IMG/VR virus record: IMGVR_UViG_3300020471_000006
Location: 32,001 to 96,000 of that record
DNA: 64,000 nt
Strand: one strand, 5' to 3'
Source: a virus
Taxonomy: Duplodnaviria > Caudoviricetes
Below the pieces are notes generated by a model that did not search any database, had not been told where the DNA came from, and was given only the letters and a program-made list of their open reading frames with translations. The translations under genes and the position numbers were made by a program. How positions within the stretch are numbered: position 1 is the first letter of the stretch; each line of letters starts with the position of its first letter. Positions 5,188 through 13,108 of this stretch are shown piece after piece.

Positions 5188-5622
5188 CTACACTCCTAGG
5201 TTATCTTCAGTTAATATTAGAAAACCCATCTGCCTATCTCCACACCAGTCTTCGGCAGCATCCCATTTAGCACGGTTCTTTGCAAATGTTAGAGCAGCTC
5301 TCTTGTAGGCAGATGTTCTTTTATCTTTACCATAAGGGGGTTTTGTTTGTTTCTTTGGTTTTATTTCTATGATGTACTTACCATACGTTCCATCTTTCTT
5401 CTTTACTTTAATATAAAAATCAGGATAGTACCTGTGTGGTTTACCATCTAGAGGTGAACGGTATGGTATGATGACCTCTTCGCTACCCCATTCTATTATA
5501 GAGGTAGTTCTATCACAAAACTTCATAAAATGAAGTTCCCACGATGATCGGTAAACGATTGTAGTGGGATTACCTTTGTACTTTTTAGGGTTCTTAGGTT
5601 TATACAATCCAGTTTTAGCCAT
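5188..5622 (-). CDS. gp4: T4-like head completion nuclease gp4 (TnsA-like)
   Basis: True start probably ATG 5622 (MAKTGLYKPKNPKKYKGNP); YRSSWE, WGSEE, RYYPDF and IEIKP motifs. Confidence 0.88.
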   Translation of the reverse strand: MAKTGLYKPKNPKKYKGNPTTIVYRSSWELHFMKFCDRTTSIIEWGSEEVIIPYRSPLDGKPHRYYPDFYIKVKKKDGTYGKYIIEIKPKKQTKPPYGKDKRTSAYKRAALTFAKNRAKWDAAEDWCGDRQMGFLILTEDNLGV

Positions 5623-5671
5623 ATATAATATAGATCTCACGTTTTTATTTAGTGTGAATATTTCAAAAGTA

Positions 5672-6295
5672 ATGGCGAAAGTAGGTGCTAAGGGAGGAAT
5701 GTCCCTTACTACTTCGTATCGAATTAAATTTGCTAGAGCAGGTGGCACTAATGATGCGATCACAATGATGTGTGATGAAGCACAGTTACCTAACGTACAA
5801 GCTGCTACTGCACAGATGGCAGGTAGGTATCTTGGTGAAGGTCCGTTTCAGTATCCACACACTAGATTGTTTACTGATGTGTCTCTAGGATTCCTATGTG
5901 ATGCAGAGTTAACGCAGTTAAAGTATTTTCAAGTTTGGTATGATGAAATATTTGGTGCTAATAATCAACATTTTATAAAGGATGAGGCAACAGTTGAACA
6001 GATGCATGGTCAAGGAACACCTAATAGATTCAGAACAAATAGATTAAATTATCCAGCAAATTATACTGCTACCACATATATCACAAAGGTTGAACAAAGA
6101 GCAACAGATGTACCATCGATTACATATATGCTCGAAGGTTCTTATCCTTATGCTATTGATGCTGTTCCCTTGTCATATGGGTCATCTCAAATCACTAGAG
6201 TGAATGTTAATTTCCATTATGTTAGACACTCAATGATTTATAGCAATGGAATGGGTGGACTCACAGGAGCAGAGACACAGGTCTTTAACGACTGA
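5672..6295 (+). CDS. Tail-tube-fold baseplate protein (gp54/gp19-like)
   Basis: ATG 5672 divergent from gp4; CDEAQLP, YPYAIDAVPLSYG and VNVNFHY tube-fold motifs. Confidence 0.75.
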   Translation: MAKVGAKGGMSLTTSYRIKFARAGGTNDAITMMCDEAQLPNVQAATAQMAGRYLGEGPFQYPHTRLFTDVSLGFLCDAELTQLKYFQVWYDEIFGANNQHFIKDEATVEQMHGQGTPNRFRTNRLNYPANYTATTYITKVEQRATDVPSITYMLEGSYPYAIDAVPLSYGSSQITRVNVNFHYVRHSMIYSNGMGGLTGAETQVFND

Positions 6296-6405: not shown

Positions 6406-7119
6406 ATGGCATTACCGAAAGTTGGGTATCCCACCTACGAATTAGAATTACCTTCAAATGGCAAAACAGTCAAATATCGACCATTTTTGGTAAAAGAAGA
6501 AAAAGTACTTTTGCTGGCTTTAGAGTCAGAAGACGAAAAACAGGTTACATCTGCTGTTAAGGATTTAATCAAAAATTGCGTTCTTTCAAGAATTAAGGTA
6601 GAAACACTACCATTGTTTGATTTGGAATATCTGTTTTTGAGGATTCGTGGTGCTTCTATTGGAGAAACCATTACTTTGACTGTAACTTGTCTTGATGATA
6701 ATAAGACAAAAGCAGAAGCACATATCAATATTGATGATATTAAGGTTTTTAAGCCAGAAGGTCATTCTAACAAAATTGCGTTAACTGACGAAATGGGTAT
6801 TGTTATGAAATATCCAAGTATGCAGAGATTCATCGAATTAGACTTTTTACAGAAAGAATTGAATACTGAGGAAGTTTTTGAATTAATCGCAGAAAGTATA
6901 GATCAGATATATGATGGTGAAGACGTATTTGACTCAACTACCACTACAAAGAAGGAATTCCGCACATTTGTAGATACTTTGACTACTAAACAATTTGAGT
7001 CAATTCAACAATTTTATCAAACTTCGCCTAAATTGAGTCATACCTTCACAGTGGTAAACCCTAATACTGGAGTGGATTCGGAATATACAATTGAGGGTCT
7101 ACAGAGTTTTTTCGCATAG
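6406..7119 (+). CDS. gp26: T4-like baseplate hub assembly protein gp26
   Basis: MALPK..PTYELELPS, YRPFLVKEEKVLLLA, FDLEYLFLRIRGASIGE and C-terminal EGLQSFF. Confidence 0.88.
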   Translation: MALPKVGYPTYELELPSNGKTVKYRPFLVKEEKVLLLALESEDEKQVTSAVKDLIKNCVLSRIKVETLPLFDLEYLFLRIRGASIGETITLTVTCLDDNKTKAEAHINIDDIKVFKPEGHSNKIALTDEMGIVMKYPSMQRFIELDFLQKELNTEEVFELIAESIDQIYDGEDVFDSTTTTKKEFRTFVDTLTTKQFESIQQFYQTSPKLSHTFTVVNPNTGVDSEYTIEGLQSFFA

Positions 7120-7145
7120 CACTCTTCCACAATAGTTTGGAAGGG
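7107..7145 (+). other. Candidate -1 programmed ribosomal frameshift signal
   Basis: T TTT TTC heptamer (7107-7113) in the gp26 frame, 8-nt spacer, stem CTCTTCCA (7122-7129)/TGGAAGGG (7138-7145). Confidence 0.65.
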
Positions 7146-7154
7146 TACTATAGA

Positions 7155-7301
7155 ATGAATTTTGCTCTGATGCAGTACCATAAATACAGTTTGACGGAAG
7201 TAGAAAATTGGATGCCTTGGGAACGTGAAGTTTATGTAGCGTTTTTGATGCAATATTTAGAAGAAGTCAAACAAAAGCAACAACAAGCACAGAATGGCTA
7301 G
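7155..7301 (+). CDS. gp51: gp51-like C-terminal module, missed by the ORF track; the -1 frame is open from 7107
   Basis: MNFALMQYHKYSLTEVENWMPWEREVYVAFLMQYLEE resembles the C-terminus of T4 gp51; stop overlaps the next ATG (7294). Confidence 0.75.
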   Translation: MNFALMQYHKYSLTEVENWMPWEREVYVAFLMQYLEEVKQKQQQAQNG

Positions 7302-10300
7302 GTACTCTTCAACATATAGTGGTGATATGACCTCCTTTATCGGGGGTAAGATTGCTAGTGCTGCTGGTATGGCAAGAGATGAGGCAGACGCACAAGAGAA
7401 AGATAAACAAGCTGGTCTGAATGTTGCAAATAGTGGTAATTTATTCATTAAAGCATTAGGAAGTGAATTTGGTGGAGATTTATTTGCTAGGACAATAGGT
7501 GTTTTTAATCCAAAGCAATCTGCTGCACAAACTGATAGAGCTTCTAGTAAAGCAAAAAGATTTGCTGCAAATTTTCCCAGAACAGAAAAGAAGGAAGACC
7601 AAGACATAAAAAAGTCTAGTAGAGAAGTTGATCGTGCTAAGGATGAACTTTTAAGAGATGATGATCACATACCAGTAAAAGACGAAAAACTAAGGGATTA
7701 TGTCACTCGTGTCTTTGGTGTTGGTATAGATTCAAAATTAACACAAGTAGATGCTAGAGTATCTAAGGGTTTAGGTGTATTATCTGATATAAGACAATCA
7801 CATGAGACTAATATCAATCTCATGGTTGATCATAATGAGTTAATTGCAAGTAAACTTGATAAAATATTGGAATTGTATAGTGAACAATATCAATATCAGA
7901 AAGGGTTAAAAGATAAAGCAGAAGCAAGTAGGACGGAGAATGAGTTAGAAAGGAGAAAGGATTTATCGATAACTAGACGTTATGGTGCTCTTGATCCAAT
8001 GGGAGGAATGGGTGGAATGCTTTTTGGTGGGTTAACTGATAACCTTGTCAAAAGGTTAGTAAAACGTTTACTCGATAAGGCTAGAAAATCTAAACTTTTA
8101 ACTAAATCCCAAGCTAGTCTACTAGAGACAATTTTAACAAAATCATCTACTAGAGCAGCTACTGGTGCAACTGCAACTGCTGTTTTAAGAAAAGCAAGGA
8201 AAGATCTAGCATTAGAGTTTGCAACAGAACTAGCAGCAGAACGAGCTAGGACAAAGGCAATTGGTGAAAGTTTCTCAGCAGTAACTAGAAGTTCTGGAGC
8301 ACTAGACTCATTAGCATTAAAACCTAAAAAAGCAGTAAAAACTACTGCTCAAAATGCACTTAGGAAACTTAGTATAAAAGAATTAACACCGTTCCTTACG
8401 AAAGACTTTTTGGAAATGTTTCCAGGATCAACTCCATTAGATATGTTACAATCTATGGAAGGATTTTTGAAAATGGGTGGAGATTTTGGAGGTGGATCTG
8501 CTGGTGCTGATACAGTTATTAGACCTTTTAAGGAATCTGCTGTTGCAATGACTCAGAGTAGTAATCCAAAAATTGCAGATGCAGGTAGGGCTCTAATTAA
8601 TGAAATCCAACAGTTTGCTCCAGGTGCGATTTCTCTTGATGATTTAGTTATGGGTGCTGATGCTCTTAGAGTAAGTAAACCAGCTACTGAAGTATTAGGA
8701 GCTGGAACTCCTAAAATGGCGAAGGCATTATCAGGTTCTGTTGCTCAAACAGCAGGTAAGAAAATAGCAACTAAAACAGGTGCAAAAGCATTAGCAAAGA
8801 CTGGTAAGTTTGTACCTGGAGTTGGTACAATGATAGCTCTTGGAGAGGCAGGTTATAGATTGGGTGCAGGTGATACTACTGGTGCAATTTTAAGTTTATT
8901 GAGTGCTATACCTATTTTAGGATGGGGTGTTACTGCTCTTGATATTGGTAGAGATTTTGGATTCAATCCACTTGGGTTGCCACCTCCACCAGATCAAACC
9001 ATAAGTGCAGATCAGAGTAATCTTGGTGGTTATTATGAAGCTGGTACTTCTATGTTGACCGAACCAGGAGTTAAAGTACTACATGGTGATGAGAAAGTTC
9101 TTGGTGTGGATCCTGGAACTGGTATGACAACAGATCATATTCAAAATATTGGTGACAGCATAGTATCTGCTAGTGCTAAAATGGCACAGGATCTTGCTGT
9201 CAGTAGGGATGTCGCTAATTCAATTTCAAGTCTACCTTTTACTGTAAAGAGAGTAAATTATAGTAGTGGTATAAAGACTGGTCCAGTAAAATCTAGAAGT
9301 GATACACAAAGTATATTTGATGTACAAAGTGATATCAGTCAGTTTAAGAAAGAAGCTGAAACTGCTGTTGAAGATCCTAGAGAAGAGAAGGCTAATGAGG
9401 CGTTAGATCGAGAAGAAAAGCAAAATAGTCGTTGGTTCACTGACCCTAGAAGGCATCTTAATTTTGGTAATGGTGGTAATAGTTCTATATTATCAAATAG
9501 TCCTCTTTTAGCACAACAAGGAGATACAACTATACAATTTCATGGCAAACAAGGTAGAGATTTGTCTGGAGAACCAGGTGTTGATTTTAGTTATGGTGAT
9601 TATAGAAATAATTACAGTTTATTCGATGGTACAGTTATAGAAACAGGATTATTATATGGTAAAAATTATGGTAACGTAGTAGTAGTTAGAAGTACTGATC
9701 CTAGTTGCGGTAAGCAATTTGATGCTTTGTATGCACACTTCCCTGATGGTGGAATTTATGTTAAACCAGGAGATCGTGTGACAGGTGGTGCTATTCTTGG
9801 TAAGGTTGGGTTTGTGAGTGTAAGTAAGCCTGGAGTTCCAGAACTACAACCAAATAATGCTGGTAACATGTCAGGATGGCATACCAGTGTTGATTTCTTT
9901 GAACCTGATAGTGCTACACGTTATGCTAATGCAGATAAAATAATTAATTTAATTTTATCTTCTAATGGATTAAAACCTAATAATCTTCTACAAAAATTAG
10001 CAATTACACAAGTTGAGGCAATAGTTCCTAATTCAACAGATAGTATTGTTGAATATTATACTGGTGATCAGTCTCATCCAAATTGGGAACCATATTTACA
10101 TGATGGAGGAAACGAGCATGAACATTATGGATTTTCTTCTAAAGAAGAAAGGGATCGTGCAATGGCAATCCTAAGACAACATGGACTTATAGTTGATCCT
10201 GGTGGTGAACCTGGTGATCATACAGAAGGATCATTACATTATGAAGACAGAGCACTTGATGTTCAGTTTGGTCCTCATATGATAAGAGATGAACATCCAT

Positions 10301-10746
10301 GGAAATTATGGATTAAACAATTGATTGGTCAATCAGGAGATATTCAGTGGGAAGATTCTCCAGCAGGTGAAGAAGCGTTTGCTGAATATGTAAGACAAAT
10401 ATTGATTGACAATAACTTCACTGGTATAACTCAAGATGAAGTTGGTCCAGAATATTTTCAAGAACACGGTACTATTGACTCTGAGAGATTTAATGATTTA
10501 AGTGATCCTTTCTTAAATAAGAATCAAAAACTCTGGGAAATTCCTGATTATTTACATAAGAGAAATTTAGAATTACAGAATAATAGCATGCTTTTGGATG
10601 AAATGGAGACTGAAGCTGCGAATAAATTTCAAATTGTTCTGTTAAATAATACTGTAGTGAACCATAACGATACCGTTAAGAGGGAATTTCTCATTGGTCG
10701 TGGATTTAATATGGATTCGTTTAGGATGGCAAAACTAGCAGGATAA
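7294..10746 (+). CDS. Tape-measure/gp29-like protein 1 with M23-like and Hedgehog/M15-like peptidase domains
   Basis: Follows gp26/gp51; helical Ala/Gly-rich N-half; GVDF..YGNVVVV..ALYAH..VKPGDRVTGG.ILGKVG (M23 fold); SLHYEDRALD. Confidence 0.7.
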   Translation: MARYSSTYSGDMTSFIGGKIASAAGMARDEADAQEKDKQAGLNVANSGNLFIKALGSEFGGDLFARTIGVFNPKQSAAQTDRASSKAKRFAANFPRTEKKEDQDIKKSSREVDRAKDELLRDDDHIPVKDEKLRDYVTRVFGVGIDSKLTQVDARVSKGLGVLSDIRQSHETNINLMVDHNELIASKLDKILELYSEQYQYQKGLKDKAEASRTENELERRKDLSITRRYGALDPMGGMGGMLFGGLTDNLVKRLVKRLLDKARKSKLLTKSQASLLETILTKSSTRAATGATATAVLRKARKDLALEFATELAAERARTKAIGESFSAVTRSSGALDSLALKPKKAVKTTAQNALRKLSIKELTPFLTKDFLEMFPGSTPLDMLQSMEGFLKMGGDFGGGSAGADTVIRPFKESAVAMTQSSNPKIADAGRALINEIQQFAPGAISLDDLVMGADALRVSKPATEVLGAGTPKMAKALSGSVAQTAGKKIATKTGAKALAKTGKFVPGVGTMIALGEAGYRLGAGDTTGAILSLLSAIPILGWGVTALDIGRDFGFNPLGLPPPPDQTISADQSNLGGYYEAGTSMLTEPGVKVLHGDEKVLGVDPGTGMTTDHIQNIGDSIVSASAKMAQDLAVSRDVANSISSLPFTVKRVNYSSGIKTGPVKSRSDTQSIFDVQSDISQFKKEAETAVEDPREEKANEALDREEKQNSRWFTDPRRHLNFGNGGNSSILSNSPLLAQQGDTTIQFHGKQGRDLSGEPGVDFSYGDYRNNYSLFDGTVIETGLLYGKNYGNVVVVRSTDPSCGKQFDALYAHFPDGGIYVKPGDRVTGGAILGKVGFVSVSKPGVPELQPNNAGNMSGWHTSVDFFEPDSATRYANADKIINLILSSNGLKPNNLLQKLAITQVEAIVPNSTDSIVEYYTGDQSHPNWEPYLHDGGNEHEHYGFSSKEERDRAMAILRQHGLIVDPGGEPGDHTEGSLHYEDRALDVQFGPHMIRDEHPWKLWIKQLIGQSGDIQWEDSPAGEEAFAEYVRQILIDNNFTGITQDEVGPEYFQEHGTIDSERFNDLSDPFLNKNQKLWEIPDYLHKRNLELQNNSMLLDEMETEAANKFQIVLLNNTVVNHNDTVKREFLIGRGFNMDSFRMAKLAG

Positions 10747-10747
10747 T

Positions 10748-13108
10748 ATGGCGAGGTATAGTAGCACAGTTAGTGGAGATTTAACTTCATTTGTACTAGG
10801 GAATCTAATAGATGCTGCTAGTATGGGTAAGGTTGAGAAAGCTCGTGCTCTGAGAGGTGGAGAGATTTCTGGAATGAAACCAGAAGATCTGATGCTCCGT
10901 CCTGGTGAATTTACTGCTCAAGCATTGAAATATAAGATGACTCCTAGATGGGCAAGGAGTCGTAGTTTTGGTAATAGATATCCAGATTATTTTGCTAAAA
11001 ATTTAAAGGGACAGAGTACACCATTTGCTAGTCCTATAAATCCAGAACCAACATTTGCTTCCATAAAGGAAAAGATGGTAGGGAATCCATTTCCTTACAT
11101 TGCAGCTCCATACAGAGAGCATCAAGTACAACCACAGACACCATTACTATCATCTGGTACTAAGAGGTATGAAAGTACTGTTTCAGAGAAGGAGAAACCT
11201 GTAGAGGTCAAGGATGAAAAACTTGGTGTATTCTTTGCTGCTATTGCAGAATCTTTAAACAGGACAGTATCTTCTATTGGTCAGAAACAGAGTCAGATTG
11301 AAGGTGAGATCTCTAGTGCTCAACAATCCAATCTTGCTATTGCTTCTGCATTAGAATATAGTAATGATCATATAGGATCTAAGTTAGATGCTATTGCTGA
11401 ACTATTAAATCAGCAAATGCAACTTGCTAAACAACAAGTTGATCAGTCAGAAACTGATGCTTCTGTCAAAGAATTTAGAGAGGAGGATGATCTCTCTGGT
11501 ACTGAGAGGTATGTTGATGTTGGAGAAAAGACTGAACCAATCAGACGTGCTAATGAGTTAGAGAATAATCTTGATGTTGATAATGATGAAATAGAAGACT
11601 TTGAGAAGGGTGGTATAGCAAGTGGTCCTGATAGCGGATACTTAGCTAGATTACACGGTGATGAACTGATTGTTCCATTAGATAATAATTACACACAGGG
11701 TCAACCAAGTGCTGTTGATGGAAAAGTTCGTAGTGTACCACAATACGAGACAGGTACTGGTGGTTTAACTCCGAAGACTCTTCCAATACCACAAACTCCA
11801 CCAACATCATCTCCATCATTCAATTTCTTTGCAAAGAATCAGTCAGAGCATGCAGGGACACCTAATGTATTGAATCTTCCTAAGACTGACACTAACGTTG
11901 CTGGTGAAGATTTAATGAAGGCTATGAAGTTACCGTTTGAGGTTGCTTCTTTGGGTATAATGCAAGCTACTGGTAATGCTGTCAGATCAATGCCAGGATT
12001 TAGTGAAATGAAAGGAACTGTTAGTTCTGTTATCAGTCCTGTTGCTCAAGCATTTAGTATTAAAGATACCATTAGTGGTAAAGTTAATAATTTATTAGAA
12101 AGTAAGTCACAACAGACTGAACGTAGGAATACTGAGATATACAAGAGAGAACAGAGTGAGAACAGACGTGCATGGTGGGATATATTTGGACTGTTTAGAG
12201 GTGGCGGTGGTGGTGATCGTTATGGTATTGGAGGTCCAGGTCTAAGTGGTGCTTCTAATCTACAGAACTTATATCATGGAACCAGTAATGCTAGAGCAGC
12301 TAAGATATTCTCTGGTGGATTTAAACCTAGCAATGCTCTGAGTTGGGCTGGTAGAGGTAAGTCATTCCTAACACCAGATTTCTGGAATGCTGCTCAGTAT
12401 GCTAGACCTGGTGCTACTGGTTTGAATCCTTTCAGTGTTAAGGGTCTTCCTAACACTGGTTTTGGTAATATGATGGGTAATAGAGGTCAGGTATTAAATG
12501 TACTACAACCTAGAGGTGCTGGTCTTAGATTGCCTGGTTGGTTGAAGGGTTTAGGTTTATCACCAGAGGTTGCTGTTAAACCTAACCAAGCAACTAAAGG
12601 AATGAATCTAGCTCAGAGATTATTGAGTGGTAAATATCCTAATAGTCCAACTGCTAATATGGTTAGAGGAATGATGACATCACCAGCAGGAGGTAGGGGT
12701 CTTGGTATGATGAGTAAGTTGTCACCATTCCTTCAGGGTGGTATGAGACTTGGATCAAAAGCACTTGGTATTGCAAGTTTCCTTACTGATTTTATATTCC
12801 CAGATCCAACTGCTCAATATGATCAGATGCATGGTCCAAATGCATACTATAATGATCCTAGATTTACTGGTGAGAGACCAGAGTGGGCTCCTCCATTATC
12901 CAGTAACAAAGCAGATATTGTTGACTTAGGATCTAAAGAACATGCTATGAGTAAATTTGGTAAGAAAGATATTGATCCAGCAATGATTACCCTTAATAGT
13001 ATGAATAATGCCAATTATAATCAGCCAAATGAATCAATATCTCATATTGATAATATGGGTGACTCTCAGGTCGATCAATACCAATTCGTTTATTCAGCAT
13101 TTAAGTAA
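10748..13108 (+). CDS. Tape-measure/gp29-like protein 2 (paralogue) with ADP-ribosyltransferase-like domain
   Basis: N-terminus MARYSSTVSGDLTSF nearly equals MARYSSTYSGDMTSF of protein 1; LYHGTS...GFKPS...AAQYA...EVAV. Confidence 0.65.
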   Translation: MARYSSTVSGDLTSFVLGNLIDAASMGKVEKARALRGGEISGMKPEDLMLRPGEFTAQALKYKMTPRWARSRSFGNRYPDYFAKNLKGQSTPFASPINPEPTFASIKEKMVGNPFPYIAAPYREHQVQPQTPLLSSGTKRYESTVSEKEKPVEVKDEKLGVFFAAIAESLNRTVSSIGQKQSQIEGEISSAQQSNLAIASALEYSNDHIGSKLDAIAELLNQQMQLAKQQVDQSETDASVKEFREEDDLSGTERYVDVGEKTEPIRRANELENNLDVDNDEIEDFEKGGIASGPDSGYLARLHGDELIVPLDNNYTQGQPSAVDGKVRSVPQYETGTGGLTPKTLPIPQTPPTSSPSFNFFAKNQSEHAGTPNVLNLPKTDTNVAGEDLMKAMKLPFEVASLGIMQATGNAVRSMPGFSEMKGTVSSVISPVAQAFSIKDTISGKVNNLLESKSQQTERRNTEIYKREQSENRRAWWDIFGLFRGGGGGDRYGIGGPGLSGASNLQNLYHGTSNARAAKIFSGGFKPSNALSWAGRGKSFLTPDFWNAAQYARPGATGLNPFSVKGLPNTGFGNMMGNRGQVLNVLQPRGAGLRLPGWLKGLGLSPEVAVKPNQATKGMNLAQRLLSGKYPNSPTANMVRGMMTSPAGGRGLGMMSKLSPFLQGGMRLGSKALGIASFLTDFIFPDPTAQYDQMHGPNAYYNDPRFTGERPEWAPPLSSNKADIVDLGSKEHAMSKFGKKDIDPAMITLNSMNNANYNQPNESISHIDNMGDSQVDQYQFVYSAFK

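What the first reader, a model, noticed from the sequence alone, without database searches (positions are those of the whole stretch)
7081..7301. gp26 to gp51-like fusion by a -1 frameshift, a lambda G/GT-type chaperone switch in a T4-like phage
Seen: gp26 ends cag-agT-TTT-TTC-gca-TAG, a canonical X XXY YYZ heptamer (7107-7113) one codon before the stop. An 8-bp hairpin starts 8 nt later. The -1 frame is open (FFRIALFHNSLEGYYRMNFALMQYHKYSLTEVENWMPWERE...) up to the tape-measure start, and ATG 7155 has no clear RBS. Established: lambda G/GT and P2 E/E' (T-run slippery site) make short and long tail chaperones just upstream of the tape measure; T4 uses separate genes 26 and 51. Inference: one gene yields both the gp26-like (237 aa) and the gp51-like (about 298 aa) product, so the 'gp51' mini-ORF is the T segment.
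Basis: partly seen in the sequence, partly recalled or inferred. Interest (0 to 1): 0.8.

Follow-up and report, generated by a model that had tools for sequence, protein, structure and literature searches.

The report
Frameshift tail chaperone in a cyanophage
This marine T4-like cyanophage most likely makes a short and a long tail-assembly chaperone from one gene, by ribosomes slipping back one base on a run of T's just before the stop codon; this trick was published for T4-like phages in 2022 but is still missing from genome annotations.

Summary
The gp26 gene (6406-7119, PF12322) ends AGT-TTT-TTC-GCA-TAG. The in-phase heptamer T_TTT_TTC lies at 7107-7113, and the -1 frame is open from 7095 to 7298.

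- **Conservation.** 95 of 96 related loci keep T_TTT_TTY, and 92 have exactly one codon before the stop. They span cyanophages and Vibrio, Aeromonas, Sinorhizobium, Stenotrophomonas, Ralstonia, Pelagibacter and Desulfovibrio phages.
- **Coding in the -1 frame.** Protein conservation starts at the slip site, upstream of any conserved start codon. One phage has no start codon in that frame at all.
- **Link to T4.** T4 gp51 is a gp26-like domain plus a C-terminal tail that matches the cyanophage 'gp51' mini-ORF. The conceptual fusion (298 aa) aligns collinearly with T4 gp51 across the junction. This complete 202-kb genome has only one gp26-like gene.
- **Flanking signals.** A GAGG motif lies 10 nt upstream, kept by synonymous codon choice. 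A hairpin (-16.7 kcal/mol, z -4.5) lies downstream. The layout resembles the E. coli dnaX signal.
- **Fold.** The N-terminal 90 residues of gp26 match known tail assembly chaperones (Z 6.8-6.9).

The principle is published (Vladimirov, Gautam and Davidson 2022), so this is a new member of a known kind.

The parts
5564..6295 (+). Upstream tail-tube-family gene (context: tube gene, then chaperone, then tape-measure-like gene). The true start codon is uncertain.
   Evidence: PF23849 Phage_TTP_2 E 1.6e-49 and phrog_45 tail tube. In relatives the gene before gp26 is annotated as tail tube or baseplate tail tube initiator.
6406..7119 (+). gp26-like gene, the short (zero-frame) tail assembly chaperone, 237 aa, stop TAG 7117-7119
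   Evidence: PF12322 E 1.4e-71 and phrog_150 E 5.7e-79. AlphaFold2 model has mean pLDDT 91. Residues 1-90 match the chaperones 3klu (Z 6.9), 2ob9 (Z 6.8) and 3fgx (Z 6.2); the fourth row is 5ir0 at Z 4.7 and the unrelated rows start at 3.6.
7093..7097 (+). Shine-Dalgarno-like GAGGG. The GAGG core ends 10 nt before the heptamer. Proposed upstream stimulator of the dnaX type.
   Evidence: GGAG, GAGG or AAGG lies at -15 to -13 in 83 of 95 loci. At the conserved Glu-Gly, 77 of 78 loci use GAG-GGN or GAA-GGG, against 18% GAG at other Glu-Gly pairs in the same genes. Pairing energy to the anti-SD is lowest at -16 to -14, and 92% of loci fall in the lowest 5% of background. That it stimulates slipping is inferred.
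7107..7113 (+). Slippery heptamer T_TTT_TTC (X_XXY_YYZ phase)
   Evidence: The heptamer is TTTTTTC in 92 related loci and TTTTTTT in 3, out of 96. The codon before it varies (AGT, TCT, AAT, GAT, GCT, GGT, ACT) but always ends in T. Of 78 other Phe-Phe pairs in these genes, none is T_TTT_TTC and 48 are TTC-TTT. T4 gene 26, which has a separate gene 51, uses TTC-TTT.
7116..7151 (+). Downstream hairpin: 9-bp stem 7121-7129 with 7138-7146, 8-nt loop, 4 further pairs outside
   Evidence: Energy -16.7 kcal/mol, z -4.5. In 22 near relatives 89% of pair cells are paired, against 41-56% when partners are slid, and one pair switches C-G to G-C in 5 sequences. Over 95 loci the 40 nt downstream fold at a mean of -9.6 against -4.3 kcal/mol for background, with a median percentile of 5%. 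No single consensus structure holds across all lineages.
7113..7301 (+). -1 frame extension (the 'gp51' mini-ORF, or T segment), 62 codons plus TAG 7299-7301. It holds TTG 7137 and ATG 7155.
   Evidence: The score against phrog_634 rises from 72.6 bits (from ATG 7155) to 81.6 (from TTG 7137) to 93.2 (from 7113). tblastn matches in 534 of 545 phage records cover at least 80% of the query, and nearly all listed rows start at query residue 1 or 2. The segment aligns with T4 gp51 residues about 200-244.
7294..10746 (+). Downstream 1150-aa gene in the tape-measure position. It overlaps the end of the -1 ORF by 8 nt.
   Evidence: Assigned by position only. Hits are phrog_5453 (unknown function) and an M23 peptidase domain. 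Its tandem paralogue 10748-13108 has a weak tape-measure hit (phrog_3547, E 0.001).

Best explanation
One gene gives two tail assembly chaperones. Most ribosomes translate gp26 to the TAG at 7117 and release a 237-aa protein, the counterpart of T4 gp26. A minority slip back one base on U_UUU_UUC (7107-7113), with tRNA-Phe re-pairing on UUU codons. They then read CGC-AUA-GCA... in the -1 frame to the TAG at 7299. The result is a 298-aa protein: the whole gp26 body plus a 62-residue tail, the counterpart of full-length T4 gp51.

Slipping is probably helped by two flanking elements. One is a Shine-Dalgarno-like GAGG 10 nt upstream, which could pair with 16S rRNA. The other is a hairpin 7 nt downstream. 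E. coli dnaX has the same three-part layout. By analogy with lambda G/GT, the two forms would act together on the tape-measure-like protein encoded next and on the tail tube, and would be absent from the virion.

Shown here: the sequence features, their conservation, the homologies and the fold. Inferred: that slipping occurs, its rate, the roles of GAGG and the hairpin, and the chaperone function.
For: 1. The heptamer and the stop one codon later are kept in 95 and 92 of 96 loci. These loci share only 22-78% gp26 identity and come from at least eight phage lineages.
2. Synonymous choice points to selection on the RNA. The preceding codon always ends in T across seven codon types. Phe-Phe is always TTT-TTY here but never T_TTT_TTC at 78 other Phe-Phe pairs.
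3. The residue after the slip is Arg in the -1 frame in 91 of 95 loci, while the zero-frame residue varies mainly among Ala, Gly and Val.
4. The first ATG in the -1 ORF lies anywhere from codon 2 to 19, and Desulfovibrio phage 7757 has no ATG, GTG or TTG there at all.
5. The phrog_634 score rises by 20 bits when the 14 codons upstream of ATG 7155 are included.
6. T4 gp51 is PF12322 over residues 1-201 plus this tail. A profile of 92 conceptual fusions aligns with T4 gp51 residues 6-244 without a break at the junction (probability 96.7%, E 3e-10), and with T4 gp26 up to the junction.
7. T4, which has a separate gene 51, encodes the same Phe-Phe as non-slippery TTC-TTT.
8. The complete 202.5-kb genome has a single PF12322 gene.
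9. The GAGG element and the hairpin are supported statistically.
10. The fold matches known tail assembly chaperones.
11. The literature agrees.
Against: - There is no protein, ribosome-profiling or reporter data for any of these phages.
- ATG 7155 has a weak SD-like sequence, and about half of the relatives have an ATG or GTG within 6 codons of the stop. Several distant phages have TAATG or TGATG overlaps, so a free-standing tail peptide may also be made.
- Vibrio phage D531 lacks the heptamer and has only the overlapping ATG.
- The hairpin has no single consensus across all lineages, and its stem also encodes conserved residues, so covariation is modest.
- GAGG also encodes a conserved Glu-Gly.
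- I could not read the 2022 paper itself.
Confidence: 0.82

Rival explanations
1. The same fusion protein is made by transcriptional slippage. RNA polymerase adds one extra U in the T6 run, and ordinary translation of that minority mRNA gives the long form.
For: The site is a homopolymer run, and three lineages have T7 or T8. The product would be identical, so none of the protein homology evidence separates the two routes. [quoted passage not shown]
Against: - Six T's is short for efficient polymerase slippage (established knowledge: runs of about 9 or more are typical).
- 92 of 95 loci keep C rather than a longer T run at position 7.
- A conserved SD-like element 10 nt upstream and a structure 7 nt downstream act on ribosomes, not on polymerase.
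- Contigs from four RNA libraries cross the T run without an inserted or deleted base. This is weak evidence, because contigs drop rare variants.
Confidence: 0.1
2. There is no fusion. The mini-ORF is a separate small gene started at ATG 7155 or TTG 7137 (or by re-initiation after the gp26 stop), as GenBank records annotate it.
For: Records annotate a separate 'baseplate hub assembly catalyst' of 43-57 aa. GGAAGGG lies 9 nt before ATG 7155. TAATG or TGATG overlaps occur in Vibrio, Stenotrophomonas, Ralstonia and Sinorhizobium phages. Vibrio phage D531 has no heptamer.
Against: - Start positions are not conserved.
- The 14-19 residues upstream of many first ATGs are conserved as protein.
- Annotated starts disagree between close relatives, and some records annotate nothing there.
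- One phage has no start codon in that frame.
- This reading does not explain the invariant heptamer, the T at the wobble position before it, or the collinearity with T4 gp51.
Confidence: 0.06
3. The T run comes from chance, assembly error or a decaying gene, either through codon usage at a conserved Phe-Phe or through a sequencing indel in a single gp26-51 ORF.
For: The genome is AT-rich (38% GC), TTT is the commoner Phe codon (72%), and homopolymers are prone to indel errors.
Against: The same arrangement, with the zero-frame stop one codon later, occurs in 92 independent isolates and assemblies. Codon statistics contradict neutral usage. Contigs from other samples agree with the window across the run.
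Confidence: 0.02

Closest known systems
Phage T4 gp26 and gp51 (hub or tail assembly chaperones, PF12322; Vladimirov, Gautam and Davidson 2022)
   Same: The window's gp26 belongs to the same family (E 1.4e-71). The zero-frame product aligns with T4 gp26 to its end. The -1 fusion aligns with T4 gp51 residues 6-244, tail included. Leiman et al. 2010 list both T4 proteins as hub assembly chaperones (PMC3004832).
   Different: T4 encodes the two forms as two diverged genes on opposite strands. Its gene 26 has non-slippery TTC-TTT, and 1375 phage records carry an in-frame full-length gp51. Here a single gene plus recoding is needed.
Phage lambda G/GT (Levin, Hendrix and Casjens 1993; Xu, Hendrix and Duda 2004)
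   Same: A short and a long chaperone share an N-terminus through a -1 shift near the 3' end. The gene sits after the tube gene and before the tape-measure position. The N-terminal domain of gp26 has the chaperone fold of HK97 2ob9 (Z 6.8).
   Different: There is no detectable sequence similarity: no chaperone family appears in Pfam even at E 10. gp26 is about 100 residues longer and has an extra C-terminal domain. The heptamer is U_UUU_UUC rather than G_GGA_AAG (from my own knowledge). T4-type tails are contractile and have a complex hub.
Phage P2 E/E+E' (Christie et al. 2002)
   Same: A myovirus tail chaperone pair made by a -1 shift on a T run (TTTTTTG, from my own knowledge) just upstream of the tape-measure gene.
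   Different: The protein family is different, and no upstream SD-like element is known to me there.
E. coli dnaX tau/gamma frameshift signal
   Same: Both have a three-part layout: an internal Shine-Dalgarno-like sequence about 10 nt upstream, an X_XXY_YYZ heptamer and a downstream hairpin (from my own knowledge of dnaX; the features here come).
   Different: In dnaX the -1 frame ends almost at once, giving a shorter product. Here the shift extends the protein by 62 residues. The heptamer there is A_AAA_AAG. Function of the SD-like element is untested here.

Membership tests
T4 gp26/gp51 family (PF12322, phrog_150 / phrog_634) | gp26-type domain recognised by the family profile | tested here: met
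   PF12322 E 1.4e-71 over residues 9-237, and phrog_150 E 5.7e-79.
T4 gp26/gp51 family (PF12322, phrog_150 / phrog_634) | The long form carries the gp51-type C-terminal tail directly after the conserved G-L-x-x-F-F end of the domain | tested here: met
   The -1 ORF matches phrog_634 at E 2.5e-26 from the slip site. The fusion profile aligns collinearly with T4 gp51 residues 6-244 (probability 96.7%).
-1 programmed ribosomal frameshift site | In-phase X_XXY_YYZ heptamer allowing both tRNAs to re-pair | tested here: met
   T_TTT_TTC lies at 7107-7113 in phase and is kept in 95 of 96 loci.
-1 programmed ribosomal frameshift site | -1 frame open and under protein-coding selection from the slip site, with no conserved start of its own | tested here: met
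   The -1 frame is closed 13 nt upstream of the heptamer and open for 62 codons after it. Peptides are conserved from residue 1. The first ATG lies at codon 2-19 or is absent.
-1 programmed ribosomal frameshift site | Stimulatory RNA structure 5-9 nt downstream | tested here: inconclusive
   Met in the window and its near clade (z -4.5; 89% of cells paired). Enriched overall. No shared consensus structure across all lineages, and the stem overlaps coding constraints.
-1 programmed ribosomal frameshift site | Two protein products demonstrated, with slip-site mutants abolishing the long one | not testable with these tools
   This needs proteomics or reporter assays. RNA contigs only show that the junction is present in RNA libraries without an indel.
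Tail assembly chaperones of long-tailed phages (lambda G/GT type) | Tail assembly chaperone fold | tested here: met
   The best three of 48,161 chains are 3klu YqbN (Z 6.9), 2ob9 HK97 tail assembly chaperone (Z 6.8) and 3fgx (Z 6.2), all on residues 1-90. The fourth row is 5ir0 at Z 4.7 and the unrelated rows start at 3.6. The Z values are moderate, and Foldseek gave only E 0.84 with probability 0.66 for 2ob9. That 3klu and 3fgx are chaperones is from my own knowledge.
Tail assembly chaperones of long-tailed phages (lambda G/GT type) | Gene lies between the tail tube gene and the tape measure gene | tested here: inconclusive
   The upstream gene belongs to the tail tube family. The downstream 1150-aa and 786-aa genes are tape-measure candidates by position and by one weak hit (E 0.001) only.
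Tail assembly chaperones of long-tailed phages (lambda G/GT type) | Binds the tape measure and tube proteins, is needed for tail assembly, and is absent from virions | not testable with these tools
   Known for T4 gp51, which is required for assembly but absent from the particle (PMC3004832). Nothing is known for this phage.

The most novel reading that the evidence does not exclude
The chaperone recoding site of the T4 superfamily may be a three-part signal of the dnaX type. It would combine an internal Shine-Dalgarno-like GAGG held 10 nt upstream by synonymous codon choice, U_UUU_UUC, and a lineage-specific hairpin. It is conserved from cyanophages to vibriophages, although marine picocyanobacteria make little use of Shine-Dalgarno pairing for initiation. 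The two-gene arrangement of T4 would then be the derived state, in which the slippery codons were lost. I could not check whether the 2022 paper already describes the SD-like element.
Probability: 0.45. Interest if true: 0.5.

Novelty: new member of a known kind. Interest (0 to 1): 0.35.

Why it matters
- **Annotation.** Hundreds of T4-like cyanophage, vibriophage and other genomes in GenBank list 'baseplate hub subunit' and a tiny 'baseplate hub assembly catalyst' as two genes, with inconsistent starts or none. None of the 13 annotated records I opened marks a recoding event. Treating them as one recoded gene gives these phages a full-length gp51 counterpart.
- **T4 biology.** It links the long-puzzling T4 gp26 and gp51 to the near-universal short/long chaperone rule of long-tailed phages. 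It also supplies cultured systems for testing the signal, such as S-CAM1, S-CAM3, Syn1, S-SM2 and KVP40-like phages.
- **Recoding.** If the SD-like element is functional, it would be a second natural family of dnaX-type signals.

Tried and rejected
- **Shared hairpin.** RNAalifold on 84 cyanophage sequences gave no consensus structure. The claim of one shared hairpin was dropped in favour of lineage-specific structure.
- **Structure and family searches.** Foldseek against PDB and Swiss-Prot models gave no significant match. A profile search of PDB sequences found nothing relevant. Pfam at E 10 showed no tail assembly chaperone family.
- **Transcriptional slippage.** RNA-library contigs cannot measure it.
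- **Literature.** Four searches found no paper in the held library that describes a gp26-gp51 frameshift in cyanophages. The key paper (PMID 34826709) is not held, so its content is known only through citing papers and its title.
- **Fusion protein.** It was built only inside a script for hhalign.
- **Alternative role for GAGG.** I considered that the upstream GAGG serves as a ribosome-binding site for the mini-ORF. I rejected this because it lies 25 nt or more from the nearest downstream ATG.

Full report
**What is there.** The window holds a tail gene block from a T4-like cyanophage. The genome is a complete 202.5-kb virus record. The nearest cultured relatives of its gp26 are Synechococcus phages S-CAM3 and S-CAM1, at 70% and 68% protein identity.

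ORF 6406-7119 encodes a 237-aa protein of the T4 gp26 family (PF12322 E 1.4e-71; phrog_150). It ends CAG-AGT-TTT-TTC-GCA-TAG, so T_TTT_TTC lies at 7107-7113 in X_XXY_YYZ phase and the stop follows one codon later.

The -1 frame is closed by TGA at 7092-7094 and then open to TAG 7299-7301. Any shift must therefore happen between 7095 and 7116, and the heptamer is the only slippery sequence there. The -1 ORF overlaps by 8 nt the ATG (7294) of a 1150-aa gene in the tape-measure position. Upstream lies a tail-tube-family gene.

**Conservation of the signal.** I collected 80 IMG/VR loci (51-78% gp26 identity) and 15 phage records.
- Of 96 loci including the window, 95 have T_TTT_TTY: 92 TTTTTTC and 3 TTTTTTT. 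In 92 of them exactly one codon separates it from the stop.
- The set includes KVP40-like vibriophages, Aeromonas phiAS5, Sinorhizobium phiN3, Stenotrophomonas Moby, Ralstonia RSP15, Pelagibacter HTVC008M and Desulfovibrio phage 7757.
- The codon before the Phe-Phe changes between seven codons for six amino acids, but always ends in T.
- Elsewhere in the same genes, none of 78 Phe-Phe pairs is T_TTT_TTC and 48 are TTC-TTT, the opposite order.
- In the window itself only three in-phase T6 runs occur in about 18,400 ORF codons.

**The -1 frame is coding from the slip site.**
- The peptide after the slip (R-I/V/L-A/G/S-L/M-...-L-E-x-Y-Y/F-...-N-F-x-L-M-Q-x-H-K-Y-S-L-T-E...) is conserved from its first residue.
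- The overlapping zero-frame codon varies, mostly among Ala, Gly and Val codons, yet the -1 codon is Arg in 91 of 95 loci.
- The first ATG in this frame lies at codon 2, 3, 6, 14, 18 or 19 depending on the phage, and Desulfovibrio phage 7757 has no ATG, GTG or TTG at all.
- The equivalent of ATG 7155 is ACT, ACA or CTT in S-CAM3, S-CAM1, Syn1 and S-SM2.
- The phrog_634 score rises from 72.6 to 93.2 bits when the 14 codons before ATG 7155 are added.
- GenBank annotators chose different starts or annotated nothing there.

**The link to T4.** In T4, gene 26 is on the minus strand and is followed by gene 25, while gene 51 is divergent. T4 gp51 (249 aa) matches the gp26 family profile over residues 1-201 (E 3.9e-52) and phrog_150 over its whole length. 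Its last 50 or so residues correspond to the cyanophage mini-ORF.

A profile of 92 conceptual -1 fusions aligns with T4 gp51 residues 6-244 with no break at the junction (probability 96.7%, E 3e-10). The same profile aligns with T4 gp26 only up to the junction.

T4 gene 26 encodes the conserved Phe-Phe as TTC-TTT, which is not slippery. A full-length in-frame gp51 occurs in 1375 phage records, mostly T-even phages of enterobacteria. The split arrangement occurs in at least 545 records. This genome has only one PF12322 gene, so a protein of the gp51 type can arise only by recoding.

**Flanking elements.**
- *Downstream.* The window folds into a hairpin (7116-7151) at -16.7 kcal/mol, z -4.5. In 22 near relatives 89% of pair cells are kept, against 41-56% for slid controls, with one C-G to G-C switch in five sequences. 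Across 95 loci the 40 nt that start 3 nt after the heptamer fold at a mean of -9.6 kcal/mol against -4.3 for other windows of the same loci, and 67% fall in their locus's lowest tenth. No single structure is shared by all lineages.
- *Upstream.* GAGG, GGAG or AAGG lies 13-15 nt before the heptamer in 83 of 95 loci. It overlaps a conserved Glu-Gly. There, 77 of 78 loci use GAG-GGN or GAA-GGG, while other Glu-Gly pairs in these genes are 82% GAA. Predicted pairing to the anti-Shine-Dalgarno sequence has a sharp minimum at -16 to -14.

Spacing and order match the E. coli dnaX signal (my own knowledge). That these elements stimulate slipping is inference.

**Is gp26 a tail assembly chaperone?** The AlphaFold2 model is confident (mean pLDDT 91). 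Foldseek found nothing significant, although the HK97 tail assembly chaperone 2ob9 had the highest probability of any listed hit. An exhaustive structural alignment put 3klu (YqbN), 2ob9 and 3fgx on top at Z 6.9, 6.8 and 6.2, all on residues 1-90. The fourth row is 5ir0 at Z 4.7 and the unrelated rows start at 3.6. These Z values are moderate but form a clear step.

Leiman et al. 2010 list gp26 and gp51 as hub assembly chaperones and note that gp51 is absent from the particle.

[quoted passage not shown] I could not read the paper. The PRFect paper summarises it as follows: some T4-like phages carry a short gene and a longer fused gene instead of frameshifting. [quoted passage not shown] No paper in the held library describes this for cyanophages. 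One Acinetobacter phage record already names its gp51 a 'tape measure protein assembly chaperone'.

The principle is therefore published, and the window is a new, well-supported instance. The SD-like element may or may not be new.

**Rivals.**
- *Transcriptional slippage.* It would give the same protein and cannot be excluded. However, six T's is short, C is preferred at position 7, and the flanking elements act on ribosomes. RNA-library contigs cross the run without an indel, which is weak evidence.
- *Independent initiation only.* This fails to explain the invariant heptamer, the conserved residues upstream of the ATGs and the collinearity with T4 gp51. A free tail peptide may still be made as well, especially where TAATG or TGATG overlaps exist.
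- *Exception.* Vibrio phage D531 has no heptamer.

**Verdict.** This is a new member of a known kind, of moderate interest. Its main value is for annotation and as a possible dnaX-type signal.

Noticed in passing
window 7294-10746 and 10748-13108: Two large tandem genes (1150 and 786 aa) follow the chaperone and begin with nearly the same N-terminus (MARYSST.SGD.TSF). The first carries an M23 peptidase domain. The second has a weak tape-measure hit (phrog_3547, E 0.001). Which one is the tape measure is not settled.
   Followed up: partly
window 6406-7119 compared with L086, L088, L091, L092, L095, L096: Distant gp26 proteins, and T4 gp26 and gp51, carry CxxC...CPxCG zinc-ribbon-like motifs just before the G-L-x-x-F-F end. 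The marine cyanophage proteins, including the window's, have lost these cysteines: VTCLDDNKT and VVNPNTG stand in their place.
   Followed up: no
L094 (Vibrio phage D531) about 1265-1290: This is the only one of 96 loci without the heptamer (CTT-TTC-AAG-TAA). The tail ORF starts with an ATG overlapping the stop (TAATG). How this phage makes a long form, if it does, is unknown.
   Followed up: no
L095 (Desulfovibrio phage 7757) about 1408-1590: The 57-codon -1 ORF after T_TTT_TTC has no ATG, GTG or TTG at all. This makes it the cleanest natural case that needs recoding.
   Followed up: partly
L096 (phage T4) 3803-3830, minus strand: T4 gene 26 keeps the Phe-Phe but as TTC-TTT, followed by three more codons. 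Gene 25 starts on the last base of its stop codon.
   Followed up: yes
L001, L002, L085 (S-CAM3, S-CAM1, ACG-2014e): GenBank handles the mini-ORF inconsistently. In S-CAM3 it is 44 aa starting from an internal Met that cuts off 19 conserved residues. In S-CAM1 and ACG-2014e nothing is annotated there.
   Followed up: yes
gp26 genes of all 95 loci: Away from the slip site, Phe-Phe pairs favour TTC-TTT (48 of 78). This breaks T runs and looks like avoidance of accidental slippery sites.
   Followed up: partly
window 5564-6295: The tail-tube-family ORF is listed from a GTG at 5564, but the family match begins at residue 62. The real start is probably further downstream.
   Followed up: no
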